Of a stretch of DNA of 64,000 nt, positions 46,272-47,546 are shown piece after piece. The translations under genes and the position numbers were made by a program. The notes beneath the pieces were generated by a model. The model searched no databases. It saw only the letters and a program-made list of their open reading frames with translations, and was not told the DNA's origin. Positions within the stretch are counted from its first letter, which is position 1; every line of letters begins with the position of its first letter. The stretch comes from Clostridia bacterium (GTDB lineage: Bacteria > Bacillota > Clostridia > TANB77 > UBA1234). The stretch lies in NCBI GenBank assembly GCA_017469565.1, contig JAFUGC010000051.1:11470-75469 (forward strand). The letters are read 5' to 3'.

Positions 46272-47024
46272 ATGAATCTTGAAAATGTCATTGCAGAGAG
46301 AAAGGATAAAACTGTTTATCGAGATGGTGATAAAGTCATCAAGGTTTTTGATGAGAGTTATTCCAAACCAATGATTTTAAATGAAGCTCTAAACACCGCA
46401 AGGGTGGAAGAAACAGAACTTAATATTCCGAAACTTTTAGAAGTGAGAAAAATAGAAGGAAAATGGGCAATTGTTTCTGAATTCGTGGAAGGAAAAAACT
46501 TGGAGCAATTGATGCAGGAACATCCAGAGAAATTTGACGAGTATAGGGAACTTTTTGTGAATATTCAGCTTGAAATTTTAGCAACTCCTGCTCCTGCCAT
46601 GCTAAATAAGATAAAAGAAAAGATGAAGAATAAAATTGCATCGGCTGATTTACCGGATAGTGTGAAGTATGATTTAAGTACAAGACTAGAGGGAATGCCA
46701 ACACATAGCAAACTTTGCCATGGGGATTTTGTACCTAGCAATATCCTTATCAAGGAAGATGGTTCACACTATATTATTGATTGGGCTCATGTGACACAGG
46801 GAAATGCTGGGGCAGATGCTGCCAGAACTTATTTAAGATTTTCACTTCATGGAAGGAAGGAGGAAGCAGAAAGATACCTTGACTTATTTGCTGAAAAGTC
46901 TGGCATCGAAAAGAAAATCATTCAAAAATGGATTCCAATTGTTGCGGCATCGCAATTGTCAAAAGGAAAAGAAGAGGAAAGAGATTTTCTATACAAATGG
47001 GCAGATGTGATTGAATTTCAGTAA
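46272..47024 (+). CDS. APH/choline-kinase-family phosphotransferase
   Basis: Catalytic loop LCHGDFVPSNILI and IIDWAHVTQGN. The start is coupled to the adhE stop. Confidence 0.8.
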   Translation: MNLENVIAERKDKTVYRDGDKVIKVFDESYSKPMILNEALNTARVEETELNIPKLLEVRKIEGKWAIVSEFVEGKNLEQLMQEHPEKFDEYRELFVNIQLEILATPAPAMLNKIKEKMKNKIASADLPDSVKYDLSTRLEGMPTHSKLCHGDFVPSNILIKEDGSHYIIDWAHVTQGNAGADAARTYLRFSLHGRKEEAERYLDLFAEKSGIEKKIIQKWIPIVAASQLSKGKEEERDFLYKWADVIEFQ

Positions 47025-47054
47025 AATTTTTAATCAATAAGTCAGGAGAAATAA

Positions 47055-47082
47055 TTGACAAAAAGCAAATAAAATGTATAAT
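47055..47082 (+). promoter_or_regulatory. Sigma-A-type promoter of a small plus-strand RNA
   Basis: TTGACA (47055-47060), 16-nt spacer, TATAAT (47077-47082). Confidence 0.55.
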
Positions 47083-47088
47083 AAAAAT

Positions 47089-47185
47089 AGAAGATGAGGT
47101 TCAAGTCTAAGTGTGACTTGCCCCTATGTTGAATATGAGAATCACTCTAAAGGCTTTTGGGGAAAAGGATTAGAGTGATTTTTTA
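47089..47185 (+). ncRNA. Candidate small RNA of about 95 nt (putative antitoxin of a type I TA-like pair); ends approximate
   Basis: It is bounded by the promoter above and a long hairpin (AATCACTCTAA...TTAGAGTGATT at 47140-47180, with inner CTTTTGGGGAAAAG) followed by TTTTT. There is no RBS-preceded ORF. It converges with the small minus-strand peptide gene. Confidence 0.4.
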
Positions 47186-47203
47186 TACCTAAGTTGAAAC
47201 CAA

Positions 47204-47281
47204 TTAATGAAAAAGCCTTTTTAGGCAAGATGCTATTAATAGAATTGCTAAAGTCCAAAATATGTAATCGTTTACTATCAT
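47204..47281 (-). CDS. 25-aa hydrophobic peptide MIVNDYIFWTLAILLIASCLKRLFH (candidate type I toxin)
   Basis: Strong RBS AAGGAGG 7 nt before the ATG. It has its own consensus promoter. The peptide has a single TM-like core with a basic C-terminus. The 5' UTR can pair CCCCTTAT with ATAAGGAG, occluding the RBS. Confidence 0.45.
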   Translation of the reverse strand: MIVNDYIFWTLAILLIASCLKRLFH

Positions 47282-47348
47282 GGCATCACCTCCTTATCTT
47301 TTGTATAAGGGGCAAATCACACTATATCCAAGTAACCTCATCAAAAGA

Positions 47349-47377
47349 ATTATATATAGATAGTTATCTATTGTCAA
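47349..47377 (-). promoter_or_regulatory. Consensus sigma-A-type promoter driving the small peptide gene (minus strand)
   Basis: On the minus strand: TTGACA (47377-47372), 17-nt spacer, TATAAT (47354-47349). Confidence 0.55.
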
Positions 47378-47410
47378 GAACATATTTTCGCATTTTATGA
47401 AAAATTATTC

Positions 47411-47440
47411 TTGCTAATTATCTGAATAATATGATATAAT
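47411..47440 (+). promoter_or_regulatory. Probable helD promoter with an extended -10
   Basis: TTGCTA, 18 nt, TGaTATAAT (47432-47440). Confidence 0.45.
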
Positions 47441-47546
47441 ACCTCCATTGTCGTTTTATGTTGGAACTTGTTCATGCCGTTTTAGAAAGTTAGGTTTTGG
47501 AAATGCTCCAACCGCTGAAATAAGTTAATATTGGAGGTGTTTTTAT

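What the first reader, a model, noticed from the sequence alone, without database searches (positions are those of the whole stretch)
47055..47377. Candidate type I toxin-antitoxin-like module: a 25-aa hydrophobic peptide gene convergent with a small RNA
In the 520-bp gap between the phosphotransferase gene and helD there are two consensus promoters facing each other. The plus-strand one is TTGACA-16-TATAAT at 47055, and the minus-strand one is TTGACA-17-TATAAT at 47377-47349. The minus transcript carries AAGGAGG, then 7 nt, then the ATG of MIVNDYIFWTLAILLIASCLKRLFH, which has a single TM-like core and a basic C-terminus. In its leader, CCCCTTAT can pair with ATAAGGAG and occlude the RBS. The plus transcript has no credible ORF and ends at a long hairpin (47140-47180) followed by a T-run. 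The peptide mRNA must run into or through that hairpin from the other side, so the two RNAs would be complementary at their 3' ends. This is the arrangement in the txpA/RatA, bsrG/SR4 and par(Fst) loci. The two RNAs also begin with a similar motif of about 30 nt: GATGAGGTTCAAGTCTAAGTGTGACTTGCCCCTAT versus GATGAGGTTACTTGGATATAGTGTGATTTGCCCCTTAT.
Basis: partly seen in the sequence, partly recalled or inferred. Interest (0 to 1): 0.65.

Follow-up and report, generated by a model that had tools for sequence, protein, structure and literature searches.

The report
Candidate new type I toxin-antitoxin module
A 320-base gap between two ordinary genes of an uncultured gut Clostridia bacterium holds a conserved gene for a 25-residue membrane-type peptide and, facing it, a small RNA that shares its terminator; this layout fits an RNA-controlled toxin-antitoxin pair from a family not described before, but toxicity has not been tested.

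Summary
This includes two perfect sigma-70 promoters facing each other, a 25-aa ORF with a strong SD, an SD-occluding hairpin, a plus-strand RNA of about 95 nt with no ORF that ends at a terminator, and a shared 5' motif.

Comparative data show a real, conserved module.
- Homologous modules occur in at least three other gut Clostridia lineages (L018, two copies; L021; L035 type). Diverged copies occur in pig, bovine and wastewater RNA runs.
- The peptide frame, start and SD are kept, with synonymous and conservative changes.
- The SD hairpin is kept through compensatory or wobble changes.
- The sRNA promoter, 5' hairpin and terminator arms are kept.
- The module is 87% identical between two lineages whose adjacent spo0A is 76% identical.
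- Some strains have deleted the peptide gene and kept the sRNA gene.
- Short RNA-run contigs cover the module but not the neighbouring gene.

There is no match to Rfam, Pfam, NCBIfam, phages or plasmids.

Best reading (about 0.6): a new type I toxin-antitoxin family with par-like geometry and pairing through the shared terminator. It is not an Fst/par member. The repeats are same-sense rather than complementary, and the peptide has no PXXXG motif. The shared 5' motif remains unexplained, and toxicity and strand-specific transcripts are untested.

The parts
47055..47082 (+). sRNA promoter: -35 TTGACA (47055-47060), 16-nt spacer, -10 TATAAT (47077-47082)
   Evidence: It matches 12 of 12. It is one of six perfect sites in the window against 0.09 expected. 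A TTGAC(A/T)-17-TATAAT promoter is conserved in all homologous modules.
47089..47186 (+). Predicted sRNA of about 95 nt (candidate antitoxin), with no conserved ORF
   Evidence: Fold energy is -29.9 kcal/mol, z = -3.6. The GTG-initiated 21-codon frame is not conserved: homologues differ in frame, and one variant has a stop after 5 codons (read from the alignment).
47093..47127 (+). 5' motif of the sRNA: GATGAGGTT, then the hairpin CAAGTC/GACTTG, then CCCCTAT
   Evidence: The motif occurs twice in the window with 0 expected. The blocks GATGAGGTT and TGTGACTTGCCC are invariant in all sRNA homologues. The hairpin is kept with a different 5' strand (GGTCAC/GTGACT) in L018-type copies, and one variant changes a G-U pair to A-U.
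47140..47184 (.). Shared terminator hairpin (arms AATCACTCTAA / TTAGAGTGATT, inner stem CTTTT-GGGG-AAAAG) with a T6 run on the + strand. This is the only stretch where the two RNAs are complementary.
   Evidence: (I4). The arms AATCACTC / GAGTGATTTTTT are invariant in homologues. In L018 and L021 the hairpin has A-runs and U-runs on both sides, making it a true bidirectional terminator.
47204..47281 (-). Peptide gene (candidate toxin), 25 aa: MIVNDYIFWTLAILLIASCLKRLFH
   Evidence: Homologues are MIENDYILFAIKVLLIASFLKILINKKK and MVENDYILFAIEVLLIASFLKILINKKK, with 5-6 synonymous changes and mostly conservative replacements. Further variants in RNA runs keep the frame open. GRAVY is 1.30. No Pfam, NCBIfam or PHROG family matches.
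47286..47315 (-). SD-sequestering hairpin of the peptide mRNA: anti-SD UUGCCCCUUAU (47315-47305), loop, SD AAGGAGG (47295-47289)
   Evidence: In homologues CCUUAU/AUAAGG becomes CCUUUU/AAAAGG, a change on both sides. Other variants differ only by changes that keep G-U pairs. The SD is predicted occluded in all variants, but this is only modestly better than shuffled leaders (0.065 and 0.14).
47305..47342 (-). 5' motif of the peptide mRNA: GATGAGGTT-ACTTGGATATAG-TGTGATTTGCCCCTTAT. It starts at the predicted transcription start.
   Evidence: The blocks GATGAGGTT, GGATAT and TGTGATTTGCCC are invariant in toxin leaders of other lineages.
47349..47377 (-). Peptide-gene promoter: -35 TTGACA (47377-47372), 17-nt spacer, -10 TATAAT (47354-47349), then 6 nt before GATGAGG
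   Evidence: It matches 12 of 12. The geometry TTGACA-17-(TAGACT/TGGACT/TACACT/TATGCT)-6 nt-GATGAGG is kept in homologues, with weaker -10 boxes there.

Best explanation
The segment 47055-47377 is a self-contained two-gene module of the type I toxin-antitoxin kind, from a family not yet described.

The minus strand gives an mRNA of about 200 nt for a 25-aa hydrophobic peptide with a basic C-terminus, the candidate membrane-active toxin. Its SD is locked in a leader hairpin, so the primary transcript is poorly translated.

The plus strand gives an abundant non-coding RNA of about 95 nt from a perfect consensus promoter. The two RNAs are transcribed towards each other and end in the same terminator hairpin. 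Their 3' ends are therefore fully complementary over about 45-50 nt, and over more in this window if the peptide mRNA reads through its weak U-tract.

Pairing there, probably started by the complementary loops (GGGG on the sRNA, CCCC on the mRNA), would trigger degradation of the peptide mRNA and/or keep it translationally silent. This is how RatA/txpA, SR4/bsrG and RNA II/RNA I of par work.

Shown here: the sequence features, their conservation, the multi-copy and variable location, loss of the peptide gene with retention of the sRNA gene, and the presence of module RNA in metatranscriptomes.

Inferred: transcript ends and strands, RNA-RNA pairing in vivo, toxicity of the peptide and neutralisation by the sRNA.
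For: 1. Promoters. The two convergent promoters are perfect, a pattern far above chance.

2. Homologous modules. Modules with the same architecture occur in other gut Clostridia: L018 (two copies), L021, and L035-L044, plus diverged copies in pig, bovine and wastewater RNA runs.

3. Coding signature. The peptide ORF keeps the same start and SD, has 5-6 synonymous changes and has hydrophobic-for-hydrophobic replacements.

4. SD hairpin. It is maintained by one change on both sides of a pair plus changes that keep wobble pairs, with no disruptive change seen.

5. Terminator. It is shared, with invariant arms, and is truly bidirectional in L018 and L021.

6. Conservation against the neighbour. 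Between L018 and L035 the module is 87% identical, with perfect blocks of 45-47 nt. The adjacent spo0A is 75.8% identical at the nucleotide level and 69.7% at third positions of conserved codons.

7. Behaviour typical of TA modules.
- The module is absent from the syntenic APH-helD gap of relatives.
- It lies in different contexts in different lineages.
- It is duplicated around an ankyrin gene.
- In L027 and L031 a deletion of about 450 bp removes the peptide promoter, leader and ORF but leaves the sRNA gene intact.
- Among about 30 module copies, none has the peptide gene without the sRNA gene.

8. Promoter strength. In homologues the sRNA promoter is consensus while the peptide promoter has a weaker -10.

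9. RNA runs. RNA-run contigs of 150-270 nt cover the module. In runs X15-X18 nothing covers the adjacent BI-1 gene.
Against: - There is no functional test: toxicity and antitoxin action are unknown.
- The RNA-run evidence consists of unstranded, low-depth contigs. Some include promoter DNA or upstream sequence (X20, X17), so DNA carry-over or read-through cannot be excluded.
- Apart from the terminator overlap, the sRNA shows no significant complementarity to the peptide mRNA. The overlap is shorter than in RatA or SR4.
- SD occlusion is only modestly better than for shuffled leaders.
- The hydrophobic core is short (about 15 residues), and position 12 can be K or E in homologues, which is unusual for a transmembrane segment.
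- The peptide matches no known toxin family.
- The conserved same-sense 5' motif on both RNAs has no role in the standard mechanism.
Confidence: 0.6

Rival explanations
1. The peptide is a non-toxic small membrane protein with a physiological role, for example modulating a membrane complex or sporulation signalling, since the module lies next to spo0A in two lineages. The convergent sRNA is an ordinary cis-antisense regulator of it. On this reading the pair is not an addiction or toxin module.
For: - The peptide is conserved and is chromosomal, lying next to spo0A in both the L018 and L035 lineages.
- Small membrane-associated proteins with regulatory roles in sporulation are known in Clostridia (PMC13724677).
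- Position 12 varies among A, K and E, which suggests an amphipathic helix rather than a strict transmembrane segment.
- There is no homology to any toxin.
Against: - The module is absent from syntenic sites in close relatives.
- It is duplicated, it moves between contexts, and the peptide gene is deleted in some strains while the sRNA gene stays. This behaviour is more typical of TA modules than of a housekeeping small protein.
- There is tight double silencing: an SD hairpin plus an antisense RNA driven from a consensus promoter.
Confidence: 0.22
2. The shared motif of about 35 nt is a cis-regulatory leader, either riboswitch-like or a protein-binding site, present in two copies. One copy controls translation of the peptide through the anti-SD. 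The other is coupled to a terminator. On this reading the plus-strand RNA is an attenuated leader, not an antisense regulator.
For: - The blocks GATGAGGTT and TGTGAYTTGCCC are invariant in both RNAs in all lineages and start at the predicted 5' end.
- In the peptide leader, block 2 runs into the anti-SD, and GAUGAGG can pair with the anti-SD as an alternative.
- c-di-GMP riboswitches are known to control type I TA loci in C. difficile (PMC13724677).
Against: - No Rfam family matches.
- The two motif types share no secondary structure: the sRNA type has a clear hairpin and the peptide-leader type does not.
- At about 35 nt the motif is small for an aptamer.
- No gene lies downstream of the plus-strand terminator on that strand in L018, L021 or L035, where the next feature is the antisense of the peptide gene.
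Confidence: 0.08
3. The module is a small non-autonomous mobile element (MITE-like). The inverted 35-nt motifs would be its terminal repeats, and the ORF and promoters would be incidental.
For: - It has inverted repeats, variable locations, duplication, and presence/absence polymorphism in a variable gap.
Against: - Homology between copies extends beyond the inverted motifs to both promoters and stops at the -35 boxes.
- No target-site duplication is visible.
- There are only one or two copies per locus, and no further copy in the 64-kb window.
- The ORF shows a coding pattern of substitution.
- There are no hits in phages, plasmids or viral contigs.
Confidence: 0.04
4. The features are a chance coincidence in an AT-rich intergenic region.
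For: AT-rich spacers produce many promoter-like hexamers and short ORFs.
Against: - The pair of perfect promoters is far above chance.
- The motif has 0 expected occurrences.
- The whole arrangement is conserved in other lineages and is more conserved than the neighbouring spo0A.
Confidence: 0.01

Closest known systems
par (Fst / RNA I - RNA II) of Enterococcus faecalis pAD1 and the Fst/Ldr family
   Same: - Convergent promoters at the two ends of a locus of about 300-400 bp.
- A peptide mRNA and a short regulatory RNA that end in one bidirectional intrinsic terminator, so their terminator stem-loops are complementary.
- An intramolecular 5' stem-loop that sequesters the SD of the peptide mRNA.
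- A small hydrophobic peptide with a charged C-terminus.
- Chromosomal copies between unrelated genes.

The par features are taken from PMC7472228.
   Different: - par RNAs are transcribed across DIRECT DNA repeats (DRa, DRb), which makes their 5' regions complementary and masks the start site. Here the repeats are INVERTED, so both RNAs carry the same sequence and their 5' parts are not complementary.
- The peptide lacks the PXXXG motif and matches no Fst Pfam model.
- A YUNR U-turn is present in the peptide-mRNA terminator loop of L018 (UUUG), read directly from the sequence, but not in the window (loop CCCC).
txpA/RatA, bsrG/SR4 and bsrE/SR5 of Bacillus subtilis (type I TA with 3' overlap)
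   Same: - Convergent toxin mRNA and antitoxin RNA that pair only through their 3' ends.
- The toxin SD is partly buried in mRNA structure.
- The antitoxin promoter is stronger than the toxin promoter.

The SR4 mechanism is named from PMC3834814, which was listed but not read in detail.
   Different: - The overlap here is about 45-50 nt, essentially the terminator alone. From my own knowledge it is about 75-120 nt in the Bacillus systems.
- The peptide is shorter (25-28 aa against 38-59 aa) and unrelated in sequence.
- The Bacillus loci lie in prophage remnants. This module has no phage hits.
Clostridioides difficile type I TA (CD0956.2/RCd10, CD0977.1/RCd11 and others)
   Same: - The hosts are in the class Clostridia.
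- Convergent toxin and antitoxin transcripts overlap at their 3' ends.
- The toxins have a hydrophobic N-terminal region and a lysine-rich C-terminus. The L018 and L035 peptides end in NKKK.
- Multiple near-identical copies occur per genome.

These features are from PMC7699646.
   Different: - The C. difficile toxins are 34-53 aa and sit in prophages or next to CRISPR arrays.
- tblastn of the peptide against the phage collection gave no match.
- The window's peptide lacks the lysine tail.
- The modules here are chromosomal, and in two lineages they lie next to spo0A.

Membership tests
Type I toxin-antitoxin system (general kind) | A small (<60 aa) hydrophobic peptide gene with its own promoter and RBS | tested here: met
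   The ORF is 25 aa with GRAVY 1.30, an AAGGAGG SD 7 nt upstream and a consensus promoter. It is conserved as a 28-aa ORF in other lineages.
Type I toxin-antitoxin system (general kind) | A non-coding RNA, encoded in cis or in trans, with complementarity to the toxin mRNA | tested here: met
   This was tested in silico only. The plus-strand RNA has no conserved ORF. It shares the terminator hairpin (47140-47184) with the convergent mRNA. Transcript ends have not been mapped.
Type I toxin-antitoxin system (general kind) | The peptide is toxic when over-produced | not testable with these tools
   This needs inducible expression in a laboratory host.
Type I toxin-antitoxin system (general kind) | The RNA prevents synthesis of the peptide by blocking translation and/or degrading the mRNA | not testable with these tools
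   This needs co-expression, half-life measurements and RNase mutants.
Type I toxin-antitoxin system (general kind) | Both RNAs are transcribed | tested here: inconclusive
   Contigs confined to the module occur in 12 runs labelled RNA or RNA? (X5-X7, X14-X18, X20-X22), and in X15-X18 none lies on the adjacent gene. The contigs are unstranded and low in depth. In X5 the neighbouring genes are covered too.
par / Fst-Ldr family | Convergent promoters and a shared bidirectional intrinsic terminator | tested here: met
   The terminator is bidirectional in L018 and L021, and weaker on the minus strand in the window.
par / Fst-Ldr family | Direct DNA repeats (DRa/DRb) that make the 5' regions of the two RNAs complementary over the start site | tested here: not met
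   The repeats are inverted, so the motif is same-sense in both RNAs. The duplex energy of the sRNA 5' part against the mRNA is no better than for shuffled sequences (P = 0.14 and 0.90). The linker gives the same result.
par / Fst-Ldr family | A toxin with the PXXXG motif in its transmembrane helix, homologous to Fst | tested here: not met
   None of the peptide variants contains a proline. No Pfam or NCBIfam model matches, even at E <= 10.
par / Fst-Ldr family | A 5' stem-loop in the toxin mRNA that sequesters the SD | tested here: met
   The hairpin is kept by a compensatory change and by changes that keep wobble pairs.
C. difficile type I toxins (CD0956.2 / CD0977.1 family) | Sequence homology of the toxin, with a hydrophobic N-terminus and a lysine-rich C-terminus | tested here: not met
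   tblastn of the 28-aa peptide against 50,697 phage records, a collection that includes C. difficile phages, gave no match. BLAST's low-complexity filter may hide weak hits. The lysine tail is present in the L018 and L035 peptides but absent from the window's peptide.
Known structured RNA families (Rfam 15) | A score at or above a family's gathering threshold | tested here: not met
   No match reaches a gathering threshold anywhere in the window. The best E-values in 46500-48000 are 2.5 or worse.

The most novel reading that the evidence does not exclude
The invariant same-sense 5' element (GAUGAGGUU ... UGUGAYUUGCCC), placed at the very 5' end of BOTH the peptide mRNA and its antisense RNA, may be a common sensor or handle. 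It resembles the gene's own RBS (GGAGGUGAUGCC) split by a hairpin, so it could be a 30S-binding 5' stabiliser. It could equally be a site for one RNA-binding protein or RNase. Either way, the stability or activity of toxin mRNA and antitoxin RNA would be set jointly by one cellular signal. Coupling toxin and antitoxin RNA through an identical leader, rather than a complementary one, would be a regulatory logic not described for type I TA systems.
Probability: 0.15. Interest if true: 0.7.

Novelty: new member of a known kind. Interest (0 to 1): 0.5.

Why it matters
Type I toxin-antitoxin loci are almost invisible to annotation. Their peptides fall below gene-calling thresholds, the RNAs are not in Rfam, and the families share no sequence. 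Very few are known from the uncultured Clostridia that dominate animal guts.

This module defines a new family. It has a clear sequence signature, is present in human, pig and bovine gut communities, and appears in metatranscriptomes. It can now be searched for and tested.

Three features make it a good experimental system for how such modules are silenced and maintained:
- It is more conserved than the neighbouring spo0A.
- It recurs beside spo0A.
- An identical 5' element sits on both RNAs.

If the peptide turns out not to be toxic, it is still a new conserved 25-28-aa membrane peptide under double RNA-level control.

Tried and rejected
Only the 64-kb window and fetched loci could be scanned with an nhmmer profile, and no second copy was found.

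2. Syntenic conservation. The APH-helD gaps of relatives whose APH protein is 76-85% identical lack the module. Only the helD promoter aligns.

3. Strain variation in the window's own lineage. Three other samples are 100% identical, so they add no information.

4. RNA runs for the window's own sequence. None was found.

5. A par-like second pairing site.
- The sRNA 5' domain against the peptide mRNA is no better than shuffles.
- The hypervariable sRNA linker against the mRNA is not significant in any of six variants (P = 0.11-0.96).
- The 11-nt direct repeat flanking the terminator in the window (47123/47188) is not conserved. I treat it as chance.

6. The sRNA's CCCC acting as a trans anti-SD. 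Most L018-type sRNAs have only GCCC followed by A, so the pairing is not conserved (read).

7. A peptide encoded by the sRNA. The frame is not conserved, and one variant has an early stop.

8. L019 as a natural variant with a foreign leader. That contig (coverage about 1x) is chimeric beyond position 2305. The same lineage in six other samples has a normal leader.

9. Protein homology search. The search for homologous proteins refuses queries under 40 aa. Pfam, NCBIfam and PHROGs gave nothing, apart from one PHROG at E = 0.087. tblastn and blastn against plasmids and phages gave no match. Two scans of viral contigs gave no hit.

10. Other pattern hits. L014-L017, L020 and L022-L024 lie inside coding regions of unrelated, often GC-rich genomes and are chance matches.

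L019 was used instead.
Full report
**The observation**

- The two promoters match the consensus 12 of 12.
- Perfect TTGACA-N16-18-TATAAT sites are rare. There are six in 64 kb against 0.09 expected from shuffles, and two of the six face each other across 320 bp here.
- The minus-strand ORF (47281-47204) encodes MIVNDYIFWTLAILLIASCLKRLFH. AAGGAGG lies 7 nt before the ATG.
- In the minimum-energy fold the SD is paired to UUGCCCCUUAU.
- The plus-strand RNA folds into a 5' hairpin and a long terminator hairpin followed by T6.
- The motif GATGAGGTT...GTGTGAYTTGCCCCT occurs once on each strand and nowhere else in the window, with 0 expected by chance.
- No Rfam family matches, and the peptide matches no Pfam family.

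**Is it conserved?**

Relatives whose APH protein is 76-85% identical to the window's have quite different contents between the APH gene and helD: two to five small ORFs with no Pfam hit. None of them has this module. The gap is therefore a variable site, and the module is an insertion specific to this lineage. Other samples of the same strain are identical.

A pattern scan of species-representative genomes found two copies of a homologous module in an uncultured Clostridia MAG from Hadza gut (L018). A scan of JGI and ENA metagenomes found two more (L019, L021). The remaining hits are chance matches inside genes of unrelated genomes.

Fetching contigs through neighbouring genes gave about 30 module copies in 12 or more sequence variants. 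Nothing was found in viral contigs, phages or plasmids.

**What is conserved**

The whole architecture is conserved.

*sRNA side*
- The promoter is TTGAC(A/T)-17-TATAAT.
- The RNA starts 2-3 nt before GAUGAGGUU.
- It has a 6-bp hairpin whose 3' strand is the invariant UGUGACUUG. The 5' strand differs between lineages: CAAGUC in the window and GGUCAC in L018. One pig-gut variant turns a G-U pair into A-U.
- A linker and a terminator loop follow, both hypervariable.
- The terminator arms AAUCACUC / GAGUGAUUUUUU are invariant.

*Peptide side*
- The promoter is TTGACA-17-(TATAAT, TAGACT, TGGACT, TACACT or TATGCT), followed by 6 nt and then GAUGAGGUU at the predicted start.
- The blocks GGAUAU and UGUGAUUUGCCC are invariant.
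- A hairpin buries the SD.
- GGAGGUGAUGCC precedes the ATG.

*The peptide itself*
- The three main variants are MIVNDYIFWTLAILLIASCLKRLFH, MIENDYILFAIKVLLIASFLKILINKKK and MVENDYILFAIEVLLIASFLKILINKKK.
- Between the window and L018 there are 5 synonymous codon changes and 11 mostly conservative replacements. The frame and the start are unchanged.
- Diverged copies in pig-gut and other RNA runs add further synonymous and conservative changes and keep the frame open.

*The SD hairpin*
- It changes from CCUUAU/AUAAGG to CCUUUU/AAAAGG, a change on both sides of a pair, and is lengthened in L018.
- Other variants differ only by transitions that keep G-U pairs.
- The SD is predicted occluded in every variant. 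Shuffled leaders do as well in 6.5% and 14% of trials, so folding alone is weak evidence.

*The terminator and the sRNA frame*
- The terminator has U-runs on both strands in L018 and L021. In the window the minus-strand tail is UUCUCAUAU, so read-through into the sRNA region is likely there.
- The GTG frame inside the sRNA is not conserved.

**Strength of constraint**

In both the L018 and L035 lineages the module lies just downstream of spo0A, in the same orientation. Spo0A is 74% identical in protein and 75.8% in DNA, and only 69.7% at third positions of identical codons. The module is 87% identical, with perfect blocks of 45-47 nt over both 5' leaders. Either the whole module is under strong selection at the nucleotide level, or it has moved between lineages recently. 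Both fit a selfish RNA-based module.

**Population behaviour**

The module is duplicated on both sides of an ankyrin-repeat gene in L018. It lies in other contexts in L021 and in the window.

In two samples (L027, L031) a deletion of about 450 bp removes the peptide promoter, leader and ORF. Only the last few codons of the ORF remain, and the sRNA gene is left intact. The deletion junction shows a short microhomology (AAGA), which I read from the alignment. No copy has the peptide gene without the sRNA gene. The sample is small, and those genomes keep a second full copy.

**RNA evidence**

No RNA run holds the window's own sequence. The L018- and L019-type modules are found in twelve runs labelled RNA or RNA?, from human, pig and bovine gut and from wastewater.

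When these runs are laid on the loci, the contigs of 150-270 nt cover the module. In X15-X18 nothing at all covers the adjacent BI-1 gene. In X14 and X20-X22 only spurious 18-20-nt matches lie outside the module. This argues for RNA that is far more abundant than the neighbours' transcripts.

There are caveats. The contigs are unstranded and low in depth (2-6). Two of them extend past the predicted starts. In X5 the neighbouring genes are covered as well. I count this as supportive, not decisive.

**Mechanism**

The only significant complementarity between the two RNAs is the shared terminator, about 45-50 nt. The sRNA 5' domain and the linker pair with the mRNA no better than shuffled sequences do.

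The best-supported model is therefore the 3'-overlap type of type I TA:
- a peptide mRNA that is translationally silent because of its own SD hairpin;
- an abundant sRNA that pairs at the terminator, where the loops GGGG and CCCC in the window would kiss;
- resulting destabilisation or continued silencing of the mRNA.

All these steps are inferred.

**Unexplained**

The invariant 5' element is the same sequence in both RNAs, so it cannot pair the two as the DRa/DRb repeats of par do (for par; here). It looks like the gene's own RBS (GGAGGUGAUGCC) split by an insertion.

In the peptide leader, GAUGAGG can pair with the anti-SD as an alternative to the SD, so it may act as an anti-anti-SD. It could also be a 5' stabiliser or a protein site. 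It may have arisen by inverted duplication of the promoter and leader. However, its perfect conservation in both RNAs across lineages points to a function.

**Comparison with known systems**

The geometry is closest to par/Fst, but two defining features of that family were tested and are not met: the complementary direct repeats and the PXXXG toxin. In mechanism it is closest to txpA/RatA, bsrG/SR4 and the C. difficile loci, with no sequence relationship to any of them. I file it as a candidate new family of a known kind.

**Limits**

Peptides under 40 aa cannot be searched in the large protein collection. There are no stranded reads and there is no functional test.

Noticed in passing
window 47025-47546, compared with L001:3754-6160, L005:3754-6140 and L008:3754-6750: The gap between the APH-family kinase gene and helD is a variable hotspot. 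Relatives carry two to five small ORFs there with no Pfam hit: 183/193/63/170/88 aa in L001, four ORFs of about 150 aa in L005, and 488/131/155 aa in L008. These replace the 320-bp module of this window.
   Followed up: partly
window 47411-47440 (+): helD has its own promoter, TTGCTA-18-TATAAT with an upstream TG. It is the only part of the gap that aligns with relatives (L005:6073-6100).
   Followed up: partly
L018:3756-5135: Two near-identical copies of the module flank a 162-aa ankyrin-repeat gene, between a Wzy_C-type membrane protein gene and spo0A. In a second lineage (L035) a single copy sits between a BAX-inhibitor (Bax1-I) gene and spo0A. The reason for the recurrent position next to spo0A is unknown.
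   Followed up: partly
L027:2193-2310 and L031 (same place): A natural deletion of about 450 bp, with the microhomology AAGA at the junction, removes the peptide gene and the spacer downstream of spo0A. The sRNA gene is kept.
   Followed up: yes
L019:2305-2535: This public contig (coverage 0.98) switches abruptly to GC-rich foreign sequence inside the peptide leader. Six other samples of the same lineage have the normal leader, so the contig is chimeric. By coincidence the junction creates a perfect CUUCCC-GGAA-GGGAGG hairpin over the SD.
   Followed up: yes
module copies in L018, L021, L025-L035, and RNA-run variants: Within modules that are otherwise at least 98% identical, the sRNA linker (between GCCC and the terminator) and the terminator loop are hypervariable, with many indels; at least five linker versions occur. 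The linker shows no significant pairing with the mRNA, so the cause is unexplained. Relaxed constraint or exchange between copies are possibilities.
   Followed up: partly
window 47149-47158 and 47211-47220: There is a perfect 10-nt inverted repeat, AAAGGCTTTT / AAAAGCCTTT. In the peptide mRNA, the last codons (K-R-L-F) could pair with the inner part of its own terminator as an alternative structure. This is specific to the window and is not seen in L018-type modules.
   Followed up: no
window 47284-47286 and the equivalent place in L018: A second ATG lies 2 nt after the SD. It is out of frame in the window (ATG-CCA-TGA, a two-codon mini-ORF overlapping the real start) and in frame in L018 (ATG-CCG-ATG). 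It is too close to the SD to be the main start.
   Followed up: no
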